Below are positions 34,477 through 47,746 of a DNA stretch of 64,000 nucleotides, piece by piece. The notes beneath the pieces are model-generated. The model worked only from the letters and a program-made list of their open reading frames with translations, was not told the DNA's origin and made no database searches. Each line of letters begins with the position of its first letter. Position 1 is the first letter of the stretch. The position numbers and the translations under genes were made by a program. Origin of the DNA: an uncultured delta proteobacterium (GTDB taxonomy: Bacteria > Desulfobacterota > RBG-13-43-22); the NCBI GenBank assembly GCA_963711835.1, contig CAVQFQ010000017.1, forward strand, positions 608,001 to 672,000, written 5' to 3'.

Positions 34477-36192
34477 ATGAAAAATACAAGGAACTTAACC
34501 CTAACGAAGGCTCTGTTTGGAAGTCTTTTTTTGCTTTCTTTGATCCTGCCGGGGGCAGGGATTGAGACGGCCTGGTCTGCCGAAGCCAGCCGGGTGGCCA
34601 TACTGCCCTTTGCCATCAACGCCTCCGACAAGCTGGACTATCTGAAGGAAGGCCTTCAGGATATGCTGGCCTCCCGTCTGGCCTGGGAGAACAAGGTACT
34701 GGTCCTGGACCGTCTTCAGGTTCAGAAGGCTCAGGAAAAGTTTCCCGGACCGGTGGATGAGAAAAAAGCCCTCCTGATCGGCAAGGAGTTACATCTGGAT
34801 TACCTCCTCTGGGGGAGCGCCACCATCATCGGGACCGGCATCAGCCTTGACGTCAGCCTGGCCGACCTTTCCGACCAGCGGCCTCCCTTGAAATTTTTTT
34901 CTCAGGCCAAAGGGATGGATGAGGTAATTGTCAGGGTCAATGAGCTGTCCGATGATATCAACGAAAAGGTCTTTAAACGACCCCGGTCCTATGCGGCGGC
35001 CGCCTCACGGGGGGAATCCGTTTCTTCCGGAACCGGAGCGGCGCCCGCTTCCCCGGCTGCTTCCGAGAGATCTCCTCTGGCCTTGAAGGATTTTACCATC
35101 AATACCCTTTCCCCGCAGATTATTCTGAATGCCGGAGGTTTTGATGTGGCCGGTCTCTGGCGCAGCGCCATCCTGCCCTATGCCCTCCGGGACCTGGCCT
35201 TTGGAGACCTGGACGGCGATGGGAAGATTGAAACCGTTATTATCAGTCAAAACAAGGTCTATATTTACCGCTATGTTCAGGACAAGTTTGAACTGGTCAA
35301 GGAGATAGCCGGACAGCGGTTCGATAATTATATCGCCGTGGATGCGGGCGATATCCATGGGACCGGCCGGGCCCAGATTTTTGTTACCAATTACCATTCC
35401 GGAACTCCAAAATCCCTGACCCTGGCCTGGGATAATGGGGACTATAAGGTGCTGGCCAGGGATATCCCCTACCATTTGCGTATTCACCAGCTGCCCGGTC
35501 GGGGGGCGGTTCTTTTGGGTCAAAAAAAAGTTCGGGATATCCCCTTCTATCCCGAAGTTCACATCCTGACCTGGAAAGGCCGGGAATATGTCTCGGTTGA
35601 AAAATTGGAGGTGGCCGAAGGGGCAACTGTTTTTAATTTTGTTTTTGCCGACCTGAACAACGACGGCTCCACCGAGATCGCTCATCTCAGCCGCAATGAC
35701 CGGCTGATGGTCCTGAGTCCGAAATGGAAAACGGAATATATCAGCAGCGACCTTTACGGGGGCACCGTTAATTTTGTACTAGGGACCGAGGAATCAAACA
35801 CGTTCACCTCTACGATCATGTCGGAACAGGCCAACCGCCACTATGTCCCGGCCCGCCTGGTGGTCACCCCGGTTTTGGATCCGGGGAAAAACGAGCTGAT
35901 TGTCAATAAGAATAAGGGGTCTTTTCAGAACAGTATCCTGGACCGCTTTCGCTCCTATTCCAGCGGGGAGATATATTCCTTAAGCTGGGACGGGGCCGGC
36001 TTCAAAGAAAACTGGCGGACCCAGGTGATTCCCGATTATGTGGCCAATTACGGAGTGGCCCAATTCAAGAACAATGGGCGGCGTCAACTGGTGGTCGGGG
36101 TGGTTCAATCCCGAGGATTTCCTTTTGTCTCCGACGCCCGGAGTGTGCTATACTGCTATGAGTTGGGCCTGGTGAAACCCAGTCAACGTTAG
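34477..36192 (+). CDS. Secreted FG-GAP/VCBS-repeat protein
   Basis: Signal peptide, RVAILPF N-terminal domain, GDLDGDG and ADLNNDG repeats. Confidence 0.8.
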   Translation: MKNTRNLTLTKALFGSLFLLSLILPGAGIETAWSAEASRVAILPFAINASDKLDYLKEGLQDMLASRLAWENKVLVLDRLQVQKAQEKFPGPVDEKKALLIGKELHLDYLLWGSATIIGTGISLDVSLADLSDQRPPLKFFSQAKGMDEVIVRVNELSDDINEKVFKRPRSYAAAASRGESVSSGTGAAPASPAASERSPLALKDFTINTLSPQIILNAGGFDVAGLWRSAILPYALRDLAFGDLDGDGKIETVIISQNKVYIYRYVQDKFELVKEIAGQRFDNYIAVDAGDIHGTGRAQIFVTNYHSGTPKSLTLAWDNGDYKVLARDIPYHLRIHQLPGRGAVLLGQKKVRDIPFYPEVHILTWKGREYVSVEKLEVAEGATVFNFVFADLNNDGSTEIAHLSRNDRLMVLSPKWKTEYISSDLYGGTVNFVLGTEESNTFTSTIMSEQANRHYVPARLVVTPVLDPGKNELIVNKNKGSFQNSILDRFRSYSSGEIYSLSWDGAGFKENWRTQVIPDYVANYGVAQFKNNGRRQLVVGVVQSRGFPFVSDARSVLYCYELGLVKPSQR

Positions 36193-36201
36193 CCTATCCG
36201 T

Positions 36202-36278
36202 GGCGGTGTAGCTCAGGTGGTCAGAGCATGCGGCTCATATCCGCAGTGTCCGGGGTTCAAATCCCTGCACCGCCACCA
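36202..36278 (+). tRNA. tRNA-Met(CAT), elongator type
   Basis: Acceptor stem GGCGGTG/CACCGCC with encoded CCA; anticodon arm TGCGG-CTCATAT-CCGCA; T-loop GGTTCAAATCC. Confidence 0.95.
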
Positions 36279-36447
36279 TCTTTTAACCCCTTTTAGCCAG
36301 GCATTCTTAACCCTATCGGCCATGGAACGCATCTTCTTTACCTTTTATTTTTGCTTTTCTGAAGGCGGATGCCCGAGGAAGGAAACCCTCCTGCCTTCCT
36401 GAGCGGATGAAACGGGCGGTCGCCGAAAGCGCTGCCCTGGGTTTTTT

Positions 36448-36484
36448 AAAGGCCTTGGGCGATCGCCCCAAGGCCTTTTTTTTT
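36448..36484 (+). terminator. Intrinsic terminator
   Basis: AAAGGCCTTGGG-CGATCGC-CCCAAGGCCTTT followed by a long T-run. Confidence 0.8.
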
Positions 36485-36570
36485 GATGAAACCTGATCCG
36501 TTCGTATCACCCCGACCCCCTTATTGGGAAGTCAGAGATAAATTTTTGAAACAGGCTGATTGAACAACAC

Positions 36571-38169
36571 ATGACACAAAAAAACAGCCTCTATCTGCCG
36601 GCCAAGCAGGTGGAAAAAAAATTCCAGGAAGCCGGTTTGGGCTTAAAAGAAACCCTGGCTTTGATAGAAATGACCTGGCAGGATTCAGGGCAGGGATCCG
36701 CCCCGGGGCCTTTTAGCGATCTTTTCAGCGGACTGGATCATTTGACCCGGCATACCGTCCAGGGCAGCCGGATCAAGCGTTATAAACCGGGCGGACCAGG
36801 CCGGCCGTTTCAGACCTTCGAAGTCTATACCGCCGAGGGGGAGGTCCTGGCCTACCTGAATATGCTTTACCTGAGAAAGCCTCTACCCTGCTATTATCTG
36901 GTTTACGTTGAGGTGACGCCCGCTTTTCGAGGGAAAGGATTGGGCAATCGCATTCTGGCGGCCTTCCGGGATTTTGTAGAAGATAAGGGGGCCCTCGGCC
37001 TTTTGGATAATATCATTCCGCCAGAGGATCCCACCTTCGACCTGTATGCCAAACTGGGCTGGCTTCCTATTGAAACCTGGCTGAGCTCCCAGGAGGACAT
37101 GACCCAGGGACACTATATGATCACTATCCCTTCGACCCTCAAGACCGACCAGTTTAGGCTAAAACTTCCCAAGCTGCTCTTCAATCTCAAGAAGAAAAGA
37201 CCGGTTATCGACATGCAGGACAACGAGTTGATGGTCCAAAGGACCATCCAGGAATTCCATCAGATTTACCAGGCCCTGGAAAAACTGTTTCAGGCGGAAC
37301 TCACGGCCGGCCGCTCCAGCCCTTTGATGCGCTTTATGTTTACCAAATTTACGACCCGGCTGTTGGGTTTTCGGCGCCGCATCCAGGAACTGTTAGGCTA
37401 TACCGGTGGCGAGTCTCTGGAGCAGATCGTTCTCTCTCCGACGGTCTGTGCTTTACCGATTCAATCCCATACCTTTGAGCCCAACCCGGCCGGCCGGCTG
37501 CAGCTTTTCGGAAAGGCCGCTTTCTGGCAATCCCTGCCGGACTTTTTACGGGAAAACCCTACCTCTTCCATCGAGGGTCTACCCCTTTACCAACGCCCTT
37601 TTTTAATCCAATGGATGAAAGCCCACCAGCGGACCGAGCCCCTGAAATTAACCATTGCCGACCTCCTGGACCTCGGATTCGATCCCACCCGGCTCCGGGA
37701 ATTCCGGCACCAAGGACAGGCCATTATCTTTGAACGGGTCTCTCCTGCTCTCCTAACCGGAGTAAAAGTGAGAGGAGCCCTCCTGGAAAAAATTGGCCGA
37801 AAAACCTCCGGTCTTCGTCTGAACGGGACCCAAATGCGGATCAATCCCATACTGGTCTGGATTCTGGACCGGGGCAATGGGTATATTCTGCGCCAGAAGA
37901 TAGCCGGGATTCACTGGGAAGAGGCAGCGGCTCAATGCCGGGAGAATCCCCAGTTGGCTTCTCTTAACCGGCAGCTCTCTCTGGATCAGAAAATCAGCCG
38001 GACCGTTCGTGATCTCAGGGATTGGATTCAAGATCATATCCGTTTTCCGAAAAAAACCTCCCTGGCGGATCTGGCTTTTTTTATTCCCTGGAACATAGAA
38101 AGCAATCGCCCCCTGTTTTCCATTGACGATGCCAACCAGCCCTATCTGGAAATGGTCTGGATTGCCTAA
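36571..38169 (+). CDS. GNAT-domain protein with a large uncharacterised C-terminal region
   Basis: VEVTPAFRGKGLGNRIL motif A and LYAKLGW; about 330 further residues unassigned. Confidence 0.7.
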   Translation: MTQKNSLYLPAKQVEKKFQEAGLGLKETLALIEMTWQDSGQGSAPGPFSDLFSGLDHLTRHTVQGSRIKRYKPGGPGRPFQTFEVYTAEGEVLAYLNMLYLRKPLPCYYLVYVEVTPAFRGKGLGNRILAAFRDFVEDKGALGLLDNIIPPEDPTFDLYAKLGWLPIETWLSSQEDMTQGHYMITIPSTLKTDQFRLKLPKLLFNLKKKRPVIDMQDNELMVQRTIQEFHQIYQALEKLFQAELTAGRSSPLMRFMFTKFTTRLLGFRRRIQELLGYTGGESLEQIVLSPTVCALPIQSHTFEPNPAGRLQLFGKAAFWQSLPDFLRENPTSSIEGLPLYQRPFLIQWMKAHQRTEPLKLTIADLLDLGFDPTRLREFRHQGQAIIFERVSPALLTGVKVRGALLEKIGRKTSGLRLNGTQMRINPILVWILDRGNGYILRQKIAGIHWEEAAAQCRENPQLASLNRQLSLDQKISRTVRDLRDWIQDHIRFPKKTSLADLAFFIPWNIESNRPLFSIDDANQPYLEMVWIA

Positions 38170-38180
38170 CCTTTTTGGAC

Positions 38181-38468
38181 TCGTTCAAAAGGTCTGGCCT
38201 TATTCCCGATTCACGACGGCAGGGGACCGGGGGTCTCGAATTTAAGGCTTGTCCAAAGGGGGACCCTTCCCACCAATCCGGCCCAGATTTCTAAGTTGGT
38301 TTAGAGCCGGGCCTTCACCCACCCGGACAAACAGCTTTGGTGGAGGCCTGCTTAAAGCATTATCGTCACCTTTCCAGTCCCGCTAAAAGCGGGATTTCAA
38401 AGTGAGGAGTTTATGGTGGACAACCTTAAAATCGAGACCCCCGGTCCCCTGCTCTATCTTTTGAACGA
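38181..38468. mobile_element. Nested inverted-repeat element, copy B
   Basis: Outer IR TCGTTCAAAAG/CTTTTGAACGA; inner IR 38219-38452; core nearly identical to copy A. Confidence 0.85.
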
Positions 38469-38571
38469 TAGGGACCCCCTTCTTCCTTGTCCCCCTCTTG
38501 AATTTTACTTGACAGAAGGACCCCGACAGGAATAATTTTAATGAAATTTTATTGTGTTAGAGGATCGGCGG

Positions 38572-39252
38572 ATGAATTGCGGATTAAAAAAGATGACGGC
38601 TGTTTTCGGGATAATTTTTCTTTGGGCTGCTTTCGGAATTGCCGGGACGCCCTCGCTTCAACTCAAGGAAACGAACTACGATTTCGGGGAGGTCGAGGAA
38701 GGGGCGGTTGTCAGCCATGACTTTGAACTCCGGAATACCGGTTCCGATCCCCTGGAGATTATCGAAGTCCGTCCGGGCTGAGGCTGTGCCGTGGCCCATT
38801 TCGATCGGGTCATCCCTCCTGGTGGGGAGGGTAAAATTACCTTAAAGGTTGATCTGAAAGGATACCAGGGTAAAGTCTGGAAATCGGCTACCGTCACCAG
38901 TAATGACCCTCAAAAGCCATCTCTTCATTTGAATCTTCAGGGAAAGGTCAAGCCCTGGATTGAAATCCGGCCTTCCCGAGTAATTCACTTCCGAAAAGCG
39001 TTAGGGGGTGAAGATGAAAAATCGATTGATTTGATCGGTTCTGGCCAACCTTTTTCGGTCCTCAGGGTGGAAACCACGCTGACTGAGAAAATACGCTTTC
39101 AAGTAGAAACGGTTGTTGAGAAAAAACATTACCGCCTCAAAGTCGCTCCCTTGGTAAAACAGGGAAGCTATGCCGGCACCCTCAAATGTGTTACGGATCA
39201 CCCGAAAAAACCCGAAATCCTCCTTCAAGTTATAGGTCAATTCGATAGTTAA
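38572..39252 (+). CDS. DUF1573 (Ig-like) exported protein with in-frame UGA, probable selenoprotein
   Basis: ORFs 38554..38781 and 38791..39252 are in frame: YDFGEV...NTGSDPLEIIEVRPG-UGA-GCAVA...IPPGGEGKI; UGA sits at the first Cys of the CGC motif. Confidence 0.75.
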
Positions 39253-39262
39253 AAATGGTTAC

Positions 39263-40486
39263 ATGCACCTACTCGCACTGACCCATCTCTTTTATCCGGC
39301 CCGGGGAGGAACTGAAATCGCCCTCCTGGAGCTTTCCAAGAAATTGGTGGAGAAAGGGCATCGGGTTACGGTTCTGACCTCCAACCAGCTCTCCCTGGAG
39401 GCTTTTAGAAATCCTCAAACCAATACTCATCTGGCTCAAAAGGAATCGGCCAAGGGAATCCAAATTTGCCGTCTGCCCCTCTCCAATAGGCAGCGGCTGT
39501 TTTGGGCCAAATTGGGGGCCCTGTTCCTGCGCAGCCGGGTGCCCGGAGGGGATTACCTCTGGTTCATGGCGCATCTGCCCTACTTGCCTCAGATGATTTC
39601 CCGGGCCAGGACCCTTAAACCGGATATCCTGTATGCAGTGCCATTTCCTACGGCCACTCCGTTTTACGCCCGTATGGCCGCCAAGACCCTCAGGTGCCCC
39701 TGGGTGATCCAGCCCCATCTGCACCCCTCCGATATCAATGGCTCTCTGCGCAAAATCATCCGTTGGTTGTTTCCCCAGGCCAGCGCCGTGGTTGTCAATA
39801 CCAGGGCCGAACAGGATTTTTTAATCAATTTGGGCCTGTCAAAAGATAAGCTGCCCGTCATAGGCCAGGGGATTGACCTCTCGCCTCTCCAAACCGGCGG
39901 CCAGACCAACATCAGGACTCGCCTGGGATTAAACCAGGAACCGCTGATCCTTTTCATGGGACGCAAAGTAGAAAAAAAGGGCCTCGATACCCTTCTGAAA
40001 TCCATGCCTTTTGTCTGGAAGGATCACCCTGAAGCCCGGCTGATCCTGGCGGGTCAAAGCAGCCCCTATTTCCAAGCCCTTTGGCACAGCCAACCGGAAA
40101 CTTCGGATCGGCGGATCATTTCCCTGGACGATTTTGCGGAAGATGAAAAGGCCGCCCTGTTGGCCGCCTGTGATCTGTTGGTATTACCCTCCCAGGCGGA
40201 AAGTTTTGGAATCGTTTATTTAGAAGCCTGGGCCCTGGGGAAACCGGTCATCGGGGCCAGGGTCCCGGCTGTGGAGGCCTTGATTGATGAAGAGGCGGAC
40301 GGTTTACTGGTCCCCTTTGATGATCCCTCCCAATTGGCAGCTCAGATACTGAGACTCATAAATGATCCTGACCTTAGAAAAAGCCTGGGGGAAAAGGGGC
40401 GCCATAAAGTGGAAACCCATTATGAAATCCACCAGGTGGCTGATCGGTTCGAGGCCTTTCTGAACCAGTTGGGGGGTGCTAGATGA
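39263..40486 (+). CDS. Glycosyltransferase family 4
   Basis: GGTE, GRKVEKKG, PSQAESFGIVYLEAW. Confidence 0.92.
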   Translation: MHLLALTHLFYPARGGTEIALLELSKKLVEKGHRVTVLTSNQLSLEAFRNPQTNTHLAQKESAKGIQICRLPLSNRQRLFWAKLGALFLRSRVPGGDYLWFMAHLPYLPQMISRARTLKPDILYAVPFPTATPFYARMAAKTLRCPWVIQPHLHPSDINGSLRKIIRWLFPQASAVVVNTRAEQDFLINLGLSKDKLPVIGQGIDLSPLQTGGQTNIRTRLGLNQEPLILFMGRKVEKKGLDTLLKSMPFVWKDHPEARLILAGQSSPYFQALWHSQPETSDRRIISLDDFAEDEKAALLAACDLLVLPSQAESFGIVYLEAWALGKPVIGARVPAVEALIDEEADGLLVPFDDPSQLAAQILRLINDPDLRKSLGEKGRHKVETHYEIHQVADRFEAFLNQLGGAR

Positions 40487-41361
40487 ATCCGGCCGGCAAC
40501 ATTTCCGTGGTAATCTGCACCCTGAATCGGGAAGATTCCCTGGTTCATGTCCTGGAACTGCTTAAAACACAGGAGACCCAACCCAAAGAGATACTGGTGA
40601 TCGATCAAAGCCGGGAACACCGACCCGAGACCTGGAAATACTTACATGACAACCAATACCGGATTCGCCGACTGACGCTGCCCCATCCCTCCACCACCGC
40701 CGCCCGAAACCTGGCCCGCAAAGAGGTCCAGGGGGATATCGTGCTCTTCCTCGATGACGACGTTCTTTTCCAGCCCGGCCTGGTCGGTTTTCACCTCGAA
40801 AATTATCAGGATCCGGCTGTCGGGGCCGTTAGCGGCAAGGTCCTCTATGACGGTTCCCGGGAAAATGATGAACCCTGGGCCGCCCGTTTGACGCCCAGCG
40901 GAAAATACCTCCGGAACTTTACCACCAACCGGCGCTGCTTCGTCCCCACCCTCTACGGCTGCAACATGTCCCTGCGGAGAAAGGTCTTGCAGGAGGTGGG
41001 GGAGTTCGATCTGAACTACTGGGGGAATTTTTTATGGGAGGAGGTGGATTATGCTTTGGAGGTTCGCCGGCACGGCTTTCAGATTGTCTATGATCCCCGG
41101 GCGGCGGTCTTTCATGTCATGGTTAAACAGGGCGGCAGCAGAAACCCTCCTCCGGGACCTTATCTGGAGAGTACGATCTTTAATGACTGGTATTTTTTCT
41201 TTAAACATTTCCCCGGCAAATATTGGCCTTTTCTCCTTTACCGGCAGAAGAGGACCTGGCTTCGCTATGGACAGCAACGATTTGGAAATGTGCTGCCGTT
41301 GATCAGACAGATCTATCGGGCCTTTCAAAAGGCCGGACATAAAATAGCAACAATTTCCTGA
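40483..41361 (+). CDS. Glycosyltransferase family 2
   Basis: ISVVICTLNR, FLDDD, EEVDY. Confidence 0.9.
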   Translation: MNPAGNISVVICTLNREDSLVHVLELLKTQETQPKEILVIDQSREHRPETWKYLHDNQYRIRRLTLPHPSTTAARNLARKEVQGDIVLFLDDDVLFQPGLVGFHLENYQDPAVGAVSGKVLYDGSRENDEPWAARLTPSGKYLRNFTTNRRCFVPTLYGCNMSLRRKVLQEVGEFDLNYWGNFLWEEVDYALEVRRHGFQIVYDPRAAVFHVMVKQGGSRNPPPGPYLESTIFNDWYFFFKHFPGKYWPFLLYRQKRTWLRYGQQRFGNVLPLIRQIYRAFQKAGHKIATIS

Positions 41362-41375
41362 CAGCCGGGATTGCC

Positions 41376-42392
41376 TCAGACCGTAAAATAGTCCCGGTAC
41401 CAGGCAACGAATTTCTTTATCCCTTCCTCCAAAGACGTGGACGGCTTAAACCCCACGGCCTGCATGAGATCATCCACATCGGCGTACGTGGCGGGTACAT
41501 CCCCCGGCTGCATCGGCAGGAAGTTCTTCTCCGCCTTCCGACCCAGGCAGTCCTCCAGGACTTCGATAAAGCGAAGCAGCTCCACCGGGTTATTATTGCC
41601 GATATTGTACAGGCGGTAGGGAGCAAAACTGCGGCTCGGATCCGGCCGATCTCCATTCCACTCCGCATGGGGTTCGGGGGCCTGCTCAAGGATGCGTACC
41701 ACCCCTTCGATAATATCATCGATGTAAGTAAAATCCCTCTGCATCTTTCCGTAATTAAAAACCGGGATCGATTTCCCTTCCAAAATGGCCTTGGTAAAAA
41801 GGAACAAGGCCATATCCGGTCTGCCCCAGGGGCCGTAAACCGTAAAAAACCGGAGTCCGGTGGAGGGGACTTTATACAAACTGGCATAGGTGTGGGCCAT
41901 GAGTTCGTTGGCTTTTTTGGTGGCCGCATATAAGGAAATCGGGTGATCCACATTATCGTGGACCGAAAAGGGCATCTTGGTATTGGCTCCATAAACCGAG
42001 CTGGAAGAAGCAAAGACCAGATGTTGAATCCGATGATGCCGGCAGCCTTCCAGGATATTTAAAAAGCCGACGATATTGCTTTCCACGTAGGCCTGGGGAT
42101 TTTCAAGGGAATAGCGCACCCCGGCCTGAGCAGCCAGGTTTACCACCCGATCAAAACCCTGCTCTGAGAAGAGGCCGGCCATCCGCTCCTGATCGGCCAG
42201 GTCTATCTTCCGAAAATCAAAATTTTTCCATCCCTCCAGTTTGCGCAGCCGGTTTTCCTTGAGACGGACATCATAATACGGGTTCAGATTGTCGAGGCCG
42301 ACTACCTGATCGCCCTTCTCCAGTAGGCGCCGGCAGAGATGAAATCCGATGAAGCCGGCTGCCCCAGTAACCAGGATTTTCTTGTTGCTCAT
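41376..42392 (-). CDS. UDP-glucuronate 4-epimerase (NAD-dependent)
   Basis: [36 protein letters not shown]. Confidence 0.92.
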
Positions 42393-45448: not shown

Positions 45449-46540
45449 ATGAAGCTCTCAAAAGATCACCCTCTTTATGCACTTTGGACCCAGTACAAAT
45501 TTGTGCCCCTGTACTGGAAGATCCTGCCGATCTTCCTTTTGCTGGCGGGCCTCTTTGTCGCCGATCAAGGCTGGCTCCCCTGGCCTCTCCCCTCGGACAT
45601 CCTCCACCGACTCTATTTCCTCCCCATTATCCTGAGTGGCCTTCTTTTCGGCTTTCAAGGCGGGTTGACTTCGGCCGTGATTGTCACCCTCCTGTTTGTC
45701 CCTCACTGGATAGGGCTGTTTAGTGCGGCCCCCAGCCATCGCGGCTTTTTTGAAGAGATCATTCTTTTCTATGCCTTTGGTATCCTGATTGGCCTGCTGG
45801 TGGATCGGGAGCGCATGGAAAGCCGGCTCAGGCAGGACCAGGAACATCTGGCCATCATCGGGGAGGCCGCCGCCACCGTGGCCCACGAATTAAAAAACCC
45901 GGTAATTACCATAGGGGCTTACATCCGGAAGATGCAGCAAAAGATCCGTTTTGATGATCCGAACCGGGAACGCCTGGAAGTCATCTATCAGGAGTGCCGG
46001 CGCCTCGAGCTTCTGCTCAGGGACATGATGCATTTTTCACGGCCCATCAATCTTCATTTTATCCCCCTGGATGTAAATCACCTGGTCAAAGAAGTGATTG
46101 ATGTTATCCAGCCCCAGGCGGAAACGAATCAGATCCTCCTGAGTTCCAACCTGGATGGAAATCTTCCTCCGGTTTTGGCCGACCAGTCCCGCTTGACCCA
46201 GGTATTGCACAACCTTATTTTAAACGCCATCCAGGCCTCGCCGCCCGAACAAATGGTCCTGGTGCAAACTTCAAAGCAAAGGAGTCAGGTGCTGATCGAG
46301 GTTACGGATGAAGGGTGCGGCATCCAGCCCGATTTCCAGGAAAAGGTTTTCGCTCCTTTTTTCTCCACCAAGCGCGAGGGTACGGGAATGGGGCTGGCCG
46401 TCTCCAAGAGAATTGTAGAATTGCATCAGGGAAAACTGGTCTTCCGGCCCAATCAACCCATCGGGACGACCTTCCTGGTTTATCTGCCGATCGGCAAAAA
46501 GACCGCTGCACCTTCCCCAACGAAAGAAAAGGAAAGTTGA
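45449..46540 (+). CDS. Membrane sensor histidine kinase
   Basis: AHELKNP H-box, NLILNA, DEGCG, GTGMGL; no response regulator adjacent. Confidence 0.92.
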   Translation: MKLSKDHPLYALWTQYKFVPLYWKILPIFLLLAGLFVADQGWLPWPLPSDILHRLYFLPIILSGLLFGFQGGLTSAVIVTLLFVPHWIGLFSAAPSHRGFFEEIILFYAFGILIGLLVDRERMESRLRQDQEHLAIIGEAAATVAHELKNPVITIGAYIRKMQQKIRFDDPNRERLEVIYQECRRLELLLRDMMHFSRPINLHFIPLDVNHLVKEVIDVIQPQAETNQILLSSNLDGNLPPVLADQSRLTQVLHNLILNAIQASPPEQMVLVQTSKQRSQVLIEVTDEGCGIQPDFQEKVFAPFFSTKREGTGMGLAVSKRIVELHQGKLVFRPNQPIGTTFLVYLPIGKKTAAPSPTKEKES

Positions 46541-47746
46541 TGAAACGAATAGTGATAGTCATTGGCGTGATTATTTTATTAGGCGGAGTGGCCGCCGGGG
46601 GCTATTGGTACATAGGCAGCCGGAACCCGAAGGTTCAGTATAAGACGGAACCGGTACAGCGGGGGGCGATTACCGCCCAGGTGATTGCCACCGGGACCGT
46701 CAATCCGGTGACCCTGGTCCAGGTCGGGAGCCAGGTTTCGGGGACTATTATAAAGCTGACGGCCGATTTTAACTCTCTGGTGCGCCAGGGACAGCCGATC
46801 GCCCGGATCGACCCGGCCCTTTTCCAGGCCAAGGTGGATCAGACCGAAGCCGATCTGAAAGAATGCCCGGACCGGTCTGGAGCGGGAGAAGACCAGCTTG
46901 CAGGACAACCTGCGCACCTTGAACCGCTATCGGAGCCTTTATCAGGACCAACTGGTTTCCCAGTTTGATCTGGATCAGGCCCAGACCAAATATGAGTTAT
47001 CCCAGGCGGCCGTGAAGGCCGCCCAGGCCCAGATTGAGACCGCCCAGGCCAACCTGGCTTCGGCCCGGACCAATTTAAATTACGCCACCATCCGCTCCCC
47101 GGTCACCGGCATTGTGGTGGCCCGGAACGTGGACGTGGGCCAGACCGTGGCCGCCAGCCTGCAGGCCCCGACCCTGTTTGTCATAGCCCAGGACCTGAAG
47201 GATATGGAAGTGCACACCAATCTGGATGAAGCCGATATCGGGCGGGTGAAAACAGGGCAGGAGGCCTCTTTTACCGTGGACGCCTTCCCGGCAGAACCCT
47301 TTAAGGCCCAGGTGGTCCAGATCCGGAATGCCGCCACCACCCTCCAGAATGTAGTCACCTATGATGTGGTTTTGCGGGTCAAGAACCCGGAACTGAAGCT
47401 GAAACCGGGCATGACGGCCAATGTGGCCATCATTATCGAAGAGAAGGAAGACGTGCTGAAGGTCTCCAATGCCGCCCTGCGTTTCAAGCCGGCCCGCCGG
47501 GAGACCGGGGCGGCCGAGCCCAAGAAACAGAAGAAGGGTCCCCTGGTCTGGATGGTAGGTCCGGAGAACAAACCGGTCCCGATTTCGGTAAGGCCGGGCC
47601 TGACCGACGGGCAATTCACCGAGATCCTCGGCAGCCGGTTGAAGGAAGGCGATCTGGTCATCAGTGAACTCCGGCAAAAGAAAGAGGATAAAAACAAAAA
47701 TTCTCAAGGCCAATCGTCGGGAGCCTCGAGGGGCATGCGTTTTTAA
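46540..47746 (+). CDS. MacA-like periplasmic adaptor, frameshift near 46860
   Basis: ATGTVNPV...VGSQVSG, then IRSPVTG...GQTVAASLQAPTLF and LKPGMTA in the second frame. Confidence 0.88.

What the first reader, a model, noticed from the sequence alone, without database searches (positions are those of the whole stretch)
38572..39252. Probable exported selenoprotein: DUF1573 with a U-G-C motif
Seen: two track ORFs are one reading frame broken by TGA at 38779-38781 (VRPG-UGA-GCAV). A hairpin GTGGCCC-ATTTCGATC-GGGTCAT starts 9 nt after the UGA. Known: DUF1573 domains carry a conserved (S)CGC(T) motif here, and bacterial SECIS elements lie immediately 3' of the UGA. Inference: selenocysteine readthrough gives an approximately 226-aa signal-peptide Ig-like protein with a redox- or metal-active UxC site, placed 10 bp upstream of GT4 and GT2 genes. 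This is a clean in-frame stop, unlike the indel-type breaks elsewhere in the window.
Basis: partly seen in the sequence, partly recalled or inferred. Interest (0 to 1): 0.7.

Follow-up and report, generated by a model that had tools for sequence, protein, structure and literature searches.

The report
Known-family exported selenoprotein gene (DUF1573)
The stop codon in the middle of this gene is very likely read as selenocysteine, giving a protein predicted to be exported and likely redox-active, but its family is already listed among bacterial selenoproteins, so this is an annotation fix and not a discovery.

Summary
Observation confirmed: 38572-39252 is one 226-codon frame with a single TGA (38779-81, U70 of U-G-C), a 7-bp hairpin 9 nt later and GT4 10 nt after the stop. 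The genome has selA, selB, selD and tRNA-Sec. The read-through scores 115 bits on NCBIfam NF041425 OS_HP2 (seleno)protein (cut-off 100); neither half passes. At this column 29 of 40 loci have TGA, 11 have TGC/TGT, none TAA/TAG. Synonymous change collapses over the hairpin (4% versus 34-61% elsewhere), though the hairpin alone is not above chance and lacks the consensus loop G. 'DUF1573, UGC' is in the 2022 and 2026 selenoprotein lists, and this scan already holds 75 similar notes in at least 68 genomes. Sec decoding about 0.95; function untested, most likely thiol/selenol-disulfide exchange outside the cytoplasm (CxC kept in 55 of 66 homologues; 12 of 42 long homologues fused to thioredoxin folds). 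The GT4-GT2 link holds in 16 of 16 family loci and 0 of 10 outside. Side find: a Cys-less Sec paralogue, often behind qrcD. New member of a known kind; low interest.

The parts
38509..38536 (+). sigma-70-like promoter match (TTGACA-16-AATAAT)
   Evidence: 11 of 12; the only match in 38100-41500, where shuffles give 2.1, so the count is no evidence; only its place fits
38560..38564 (+). ribosome-binding site GAGGA, 7 nt before the ATG
   Evidence: anti-SD duplex -5.8 kcal/mol
38572..39252 (+). read-through CDS, 226 aa, OS_HP2/DUF1573 selenoprotein
38572..38643 (+). predicted signal peptide (about residues 1-24; basic start, hydrophobic core)
   Evidence: hydropathy peak 2.43 at residues 10-20, no other 11-mer above 1.2 outside 7-26; pLDDT 52-61 for residues 1-20; no signal-peptide predictor was available
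38650..38952 (+). domain 1, DUF1573 / ASH-PapD-like beta-sandwich (residues about 27-127), split by the TGA
   Evidence: PF07610 30-126; NF041425 32-127; model
38779..38787 (+). TGA (Sec70) and U-G-C motif, in the loop between strands 61-68 and 73-77 of the model
38791..38813 (+). SECIS-like hairpin, 7-bp stem, 9-nt loop, loop 16 nt from the UGA
38815..38830 (+). second hairpin (PPGG codons), loop 38-39 nt from the UGA; probably a by-product of the peptide
   Evidence: no synonymous constraint at codons 81-88 (61%)
38956..39246 (+). domain 2, second Ig-like beta-sandwich (residues about 129-225), no Pfam match
39263..40486 (+). GT4-type glycosyltransferase, 10 nt after the stop, no clear Shine-Dalgarno
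40483..41361 (+). GT2-type glycosyltransferase, overlapping GT4 by 4 nt

Best explanation
The gene is one reading frame of the OS_HP2/DUF1573 family whose TGA at codon 70 is very likely decoded as selenocysteine, giving a protein predicted to be exported, with two Ig-like domains and a U-G-C loop that likely exchanges thiol/selenol-disulfide bonds with envelope proteins. Shown: one frame, conserved TGA at a Cys column, Sec machinery, family membership by score, synonymous constraint on the hairpin. Inferred: SelB binds the hairpin and inserts Sec (about 0.95); the N-terminus exports the chain; Sec70 is the attacking residue and Cys72 resolves it as a selenenylsulfide (about 0.55); a separate thioredoxin-fold partner recycles it, as in homologues where the two are fused. 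The gene is likely co-transcribed with GT4 and GT2; whether they work together is not shown.
For: Machinery: tRNA-Sec, selA 639 bits, selB 385 bits, selD 389 bits with its own TGA, all over cut-off; two FdhA and two MvhD frames with TGA at their motif. Column: 29 of 40 loci TGA, 11 TGC/TGT, 0 TAA/TAG (the 29 include this gene, 4 paralogue loci and one duplicate pair). All 16 near-full-length family orthologues keep both halves open with pN below pS (0.29/0.64 before, 0.22/0.65 and 0.31/0.68 after). NF041425: 115.3 read through, 36.1 and 50.7 for the halves. Hairpin codons 74-80: 14 of 387 four-fold third-position pairs differ (4%), against 610/1334, 60/176, 345/565 and 1004/1809 elsewhere; lowest of 77 windows. 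102 of 120 listed database hits start just after the codon, the mark of cut selenoproteins; of the 18 that span it 14 have Cys and 4 Trp. Model pLDDT 92, motif in a loop between strands. CxC in 55 of 66 near-full-length homologues, W-x-C in 7 more. 12 of 42 long homologues carry a thioredoxin/redoxin domain, 1 a cytochrome c. Precedent for redox CxC in a periplasmic Ig fold: CsgC, -139 mV (PMC3173608); CGC active site in MauE. Paralogues keep the TGA but lose the second Cys in 19 of 19 loci, which points to Sec as the working residue.
Against: No protein-level proof of Sec, export or activity. The hairpin alone is not above chance, its covariation is not above shuffles (202 of 500 as high), and it lacks G in the first two loop positions, as do 14 of 23 aligned genes, whereas SelD, both FdhA and both MvhD sites of this genome can form loops with that G. 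The 42 long homologues were hand-picked from the top 150 hits, the 12 fusions may be one lineage, and 28 of 42 showed only Ig repeats. The closest folds are non-redox ASH/PapD-like scaffolds. No redox gene is a conserved neighbour of this gene. The solved relative 2QSV has no Cys pair in the aligned stretch.
Confidence: 0.55

Rival explanations
1. Sec is inserted, but the U-G-C loop binds a soft metal ion such as Cu(I) outside the cytoplasm and the protein works as a metal carrier or sink.
For: A Sec/Cys pair two residues apart on a loop can chelate soft metals (general knowledge); earlier scan notes tie Cys-Sec DUF1573 subfamilies to copper clusters (unchecked AI notes).
Against: No shared neighbour cluster among 26 loci looked like a metal-handling gene (single neighbours were not annotated). 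Paralogues lack the second ligand. Fusions seen are thioredoxin-type.
Confidence: 0.18
2. Sec is inserted, but U70-C72 is a structural bond in a surface or envelope scaffold protein that is made, and perhaps glycosylated, together with the GT4 and GT2 enzymes.
For: Tandem ASH/PapD-like folds match scaffolds, S-layer domains and chaperones; many homologues are only Ig repeats; GT4+GT2 follow in 16 of 16 family loci, within 0-15 nt in 13 of 15.
Against: The cost of keeping Sec and a constrained hairpin for a structural bond is hard to explain (inference); the GT link is absent in 10 of 10 loci outside the family, so it may be inherited gene order; paralogues keep Sec without Cys.
Confidence: 0.2
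3. The TGA is a true stop; ribosomes restart at the GTG at 38791, making two short proteins.
For: GTG at codon 74 is invariant in 16 of 16 family genes and UGAGG gives a Shine-Dalgarno-like duplex of -5.6 kcal/mol, like the gene's own start; gene callers make this 153-aa product.
Against: The break cuts one domain in two; the second piece would have no signal peptide; the stop is never TAA or TAG in 40 loci; the GTG is not kept in L033, L035, L036 and is part of the paired stem; close homologues are continuous with Cys.
Confidence: 0.04
4. The TGA is a sequencing error or a recent nonsense mutation in a dying gene.
For: The assembly is 89% complete with 6% contamination; the window holds at least one apparent frameshift.
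Against: Same TGA in all 18 same-family genomes with an orthologue match and in 3 other families; contigs of three studies bridge it unchanged; both halves are under purifying selection.
Confidence: 0.01

Closest known systems
OS_HP2 / 'DUF1573 domain-containing protein' selenoprotein family (NCBIfam NF041425; Pfam PF07610; Zhang and Gladyshev 2007, PMC1976440; listed with motif UGC in PMC9312934 and PMC13188914)
   Same: DUF1573 domain, UGC motif, in-frame TGA at the Cys column, score above the curated cut-off. That OS_HP2 and the reviews' DUF1573 entry are the same family is read from the NCBIfam model and the tables; the 2007 alignment figure was not visible.
   Different: Two-domain form (many close homologues have a third domain); fixed in front of GT4-GT2 in this family only; hairpin without the consensus loop G. 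No function is given in the passages read.
CsgC and nDsbD, redox-active periplasmic Ig folds (PMC3173608)
   Same: Exported Ig-like beta-sandwich with a Cys pair on a loop; CsgC has CxC.
   Different: No sequence match and neither is among the rows shown by the two fold searches; an analogy, not membership. They have no Sec.
ASH / PapD-like domains (HYDIN, VesB C-terminal domain, CEP192; PDB 2QSV as the only sequence match)
   Same: Fold of both domains: Z 11.4, rmsd 2.0, 96 aligned to VesB 4LK4; Z 11.0, rmsd 2.0, 99 aligned to HYDIN 2E6J; 2QSV E 0.0007.
   Different: These are scaffold or chaperone domains; a shared fold shows no function, and 2QSV lacks the Cys pair in the aligned stretch.

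Membership tests
OS_HP2/DUF1573 selenoprotein (NF041425) | score above the curated cut-off | tested here: met
   115.3 bits against 100, model 2-98 of 98 (U read as C)
OS_HP2/DUF1573 selenoprotein (NF041425) | PF07610 domain with UGC motif | tested here: met
   PF07610 E 1e-22; U70-G71-C72; motif as listed
OS_HP2/DUF1573 selenoprotein (NF041425) | in-frame TGA aligned with Cys of homologues, conserved on both sides | tested here: met
   29 TGA, 11 TGC/TGT, 0 other of 40 loci; pN below pS on both sides
bacterial selenoproteins | selA, selB, selC, selD in the genome | tested here: met
   the two TGA-bearing relatives without a selA hit (G007, G018; 90% and 76% complete) have selB and tRNA-Sec
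bacterial selenoproteins | Sec found in the protein | not testable with these tools
   needs mass spectrometry or 75Se
consensus bacterial SECIS (as given in PMC13188914) | 3-9 nt loop, 4-16 bp stem, 16-37 nt from UGA, MFE at most -7.5 kcal/mol | tested here: met
   9-nt loop, 7 bp, spacing 16; -9.3 kcal/mol; rules; bSECISearch itself was not available
consensus bacterial SECIS (as given in PMC13188914) | G in the first two loop positions | tested here: not met
   loop AUUUCGAUC; 9 of 23 aligned genes have that G, 14 do not. So it is filed as a non-consensus SECIS-like hairpin
functional RNA hairpin | covariation of stem pairs | tested here: inconclusive
   91% of cells paired against 30-50% for slid partners, but no measure above column shuffles; synonymous constraint is strong
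CsgC/nDsbD redox Ig folds | structural or sequence relationship | tested here: inconclusive
   not among the rows shown
CsgC/nDsbD redox Ig folds | measured thiol-disulfide redox activity | not testable with these tools
   bench assay needed
thioredoxin-fold selenoproteins | thioredoxin fold with UxxC | tested here: not met
   all-beta model, UxC; no such Pfam hit

The most novel reading that the evidence does not exclude
The UGA works as a selenium gate on cell-surface glycosylation: the GT4 gene starts 0-15 nt after this gene's stop in 13 of 15 family loci and has no real Shine-Dalgarno in 5 of them, this one included, so GT4 and GT2 would be made only when ribosomes read through the Sec codon (or restart at the invariant GTG in the hairpin).
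Probability: 0.1. Interest if true: 0.6.

Novelty: new member of a known kind. Interest (0 to 1): 0.17.

Why it matters
As it stands it corrects an annotation: gene callers cut this family at the UGA (102 of 120 listed hits). The family has no tested function, so a 22 kDa two-domain member with a confident model is a usable test protein for Sec chemistry in an Ig fold outside the cytoplasm. The constrained hairpin without the consensus loop G, shared with a Cys-less paralogue, is a clean example of a non-consensus SECIS. None of this would surprise a selenoprotein specialist; only the selenium-gated glycosylation reading would.

Tried and rejected
Hairpin significance from the single sequence: not above chance. 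Covariation in the 23-gene alignment: not above shuffles. The second hairpin as the true SECIS (it has the loop G, 38-39 nt away): rejected, no synonymous constraint there. Rfam on 36000-41500: only a tRNA and one chance match. Fold searches: neither CsgC nor nDsbD among the rows shown. Tree of 41 rows (21 Sec, 20 Cys; 15 loci left out as duplicate, partial, paralogous or distant, and P0129 for lacking CxC): the 16 family genes form a starred clade (99/99), deeper forks are open, so the direction of Sec/Cys change is not known. VKOR/glutaredoxin-like gene upstream of the C4 paralogue as a conserved partner: found in 1 of 19 paralogue loci, rejected. A loose motif scan of the genome for other Sec sites gave 484 mostly chance candidates and was used only for SelD, FdhA and MvhD. 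No result from the protein atlas. BSepDB supplement: no 'DUF1573' or 'OS_HP2' in the one file held. No complex prediction was run, as no partner could be named.

Full report
Observation. The window holds one frame from ATG 38572 to TAA 39252 with a single internal stop, TGA at 38779-38781, in VRPG*GCAV. Read as Sec it gives 226 aa with U70-G71-C72. Standard calling yields two ORFs. A GAGGA site lies 7 nt before the ATG and a TTGACA-16-AATAAT match at 38509-38536 (the promoter count, 1 against 2.1 in shuffles, is no evidence). GT4 begins 10 nt after the stop and GT2 overlaps it.

Is the TGA real and decoded? The genome has tRNA-Sec and selA, selB, selD over their cut-offs, selD with its own TGA; two FdhA and two MvhD frames also carry TGA at their motifs. 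Among 40 loci from the genome searches, the column holds TGA in 29, TGC or TGT in 11 and TAA or TAG in none. The 29 include this gene, four paralogue loci and one duplicate pair (L006, L021). 18 of 20 same-family genomes have a match. selA was found in 37 of 41 genomes; the two TGA-bearing ones without it have selB and tRNA-Sec. In 16 near-full-length family genes both halves stay open and pN is well under pS. Contigs from three DNA runs of three studies bridge the codon unchanged (4 of 22 listed runs laid; contigs, not raw reads). The TGA cuts one domain: the halves score 36.1 and 50.7 on NF041425, the read-through 115.3. Of 120 listed database hits (186 found), 102 start just after the codon; of the 18 spanning it, 14 have Cys and 4 Trp.

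The hairpin. Alone it is unremarkable: z about -0.6, and 8-18% of synonymous recodings do as well. Across 23 Sec genes 91% of stem cells pair against 30-50% for slid partners, but covariation is not above column shuffles. The strong sign is synonymous constraint: pS 0.31 at codons 71-82 against 0.64-0.68 elsewhere, and 14 of 387 four-fold sites differing at codons 74-80, the lowest of 77 windows (pairs among kin are not independent). It meets three of four rules of the consensus model given in PMC13188914 and fails the loop-G rule, as do 14 of 23 genes. A second hairpin has that G but shows no constraint.

The protein. A hydrophobic stretch at residues 7-26 suggests a signal peptide (prediction by inspection). 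The model from an 87-sequence alignment has pLDDT 92 and two beta-sandwiches, with U-G-C between strands 61-68 and 73-77. Fold matches are ASH/PapD-like domains; the only sequence match in the PDB is 2QSV. CxC is kept in 55 of 66 near-full-length homologues. Of 42 long homologues that I picked from the top 150 representatives, 12 carry thioredoxin/redoxin domains, 1 a cytochrome c, 1 a peptidase, 28 only Ig repeats.

Neighbourhood. GT4 and GT2 follow the gene in 16 of 16 family loci and in 0 of 10 loci outside the family (20 of the relatives' loci were widened). The GT4 start lies 0-15 nt after the stop in 13 of 15 loci, 50 and 253 nt in the other two; its Shine-Dalgarno is weaker than -2 kcal/mol in 5 of 15, but clear (about -7) in 3. 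This suggests an operon, but kinship alone can explain it.

Mechanism. Most likely SelB reads the hairpin, Sec enters at codon 70, the chain is exported, and the loop forms a reversible selenenylsulfide for thiol-disulfide exchange with envelope proteins. Sec decoding is about 0.95; the redox role about 0.55, resting on motif conservation, fusions, the Cys-less paralogues and precedent (CsgC, PMC3173608; MauE CGC, bioRxiv 10.64898/2026.03.05.709764). Rivals: structural scaffold linked to the glycosyltransferases (0.2), metal binding (0.18), stop with restart at the invariant GTG (0.04), artefact (0.01).

What is known. The protein passes NCBIfam NF041425 'OS_HP2 family (seleno)protein'. OS_HP2 was reported in PMC1976440 (passages and section 12 read; figures not visible; the SECIS figure legend does not list OS_HP2). 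'DUF1573 domain-containing protein, UGC' stands in the tables of PMC9312934 and PMC13188914 (passages read). PMC13326102 (passages and one supplement file searched) notes that 87.4% of entries have a canonical SECIS. PMC3173608 and the MauE preprint were read as passages only. I saw no function, glycosyltransferase link or Cys-less form for the family in five searches; two of the four DUF1573 papers were seen only as listings, subscription journals are not covered, and preprint supplements were not visible. This scan already holds 75 notes with these words in at least 68 genomes (unchecked).

Side result. A one-domain paralogue at G000 C4:100287-99862 has TGA at the same column in Y-T-U-S-M and scores 52 on NF041425, under the cut-off. 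All 19 paralogue loci examined have TGA and none a Cys at +2 (one further weak locus, L094, did not align and was dropped). Their 6-bp hairpin has one A-U/G-C double change (0 of 500 shuffles as high; related sequences). 10 of 19 lie right behind a qrcD-like gene (3 tested, all over the QrcD cut-off).

Verdict. Real, very likely a selenoprotein, new member of a known kind; interest 0.17.

Noticed in passing
G000:C4:99862-100287 (-), locus L043/L069; relatives L070-L083, L095-L097: One-domain DUF1573 paralogue with a conserved TGA at the same column but no second Cys (U-S-M, U-G-T, U-S-T), 19 of 19 loci, below the NF041425 cut-off; its 6-bp hairpin shows a compensatory pair; 10 of 19 loci sit behind qrcD. 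Not matched by the published 'UGC' motif.
   Followed up: partly
G000:C8:58101-58349 (-), locus L048: Third copy in this genome, between qrcD and a HAD hydrolase gene; it keeps the TGA and hairpin but the N-terminal half is missing in frame, so it looks broken.
   Followed up: partly
window 38222-38450: About 230-bp element with about 33-bp terminal inverted repeats that folds into a long rod; 19 other near-full-length copies at 80% identity or more in the genome; no Rfam match; looks like a MITE.
   Followed up: partly
G000:C4:100775-101692 (-), L043:2417-3337: Membrane protein with weak VKOR and glutaredoxin-like matches upstream of the C4 paralogue; not seen next to the 18 other paralogue loci.
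   Followed up: partly
window 46315-47746: An efflux adaptor-like gene appears split into two overlapping frames near 46900, an apparent frameshift.
   Followed up: no
window 36571-38169: 532-aa protein with an N-terminal GNAT domain and a long unassigned C-terminal part; it is the upstream neighbour in 8 of 16 family loci.
   Followed up: no
P0072, P0073, P0099, P0107: Database proteins with W at the Sec column, apparently gene calls that read TGA as Trp.
   Followed up: no
G000:C19:27640 (-), C21:118353 (+), C17:736951 (+), C21:116609 (+): TGA at the Sec motifs of two FdhA-like and two MvhD-like frames.
   Followed up: partly
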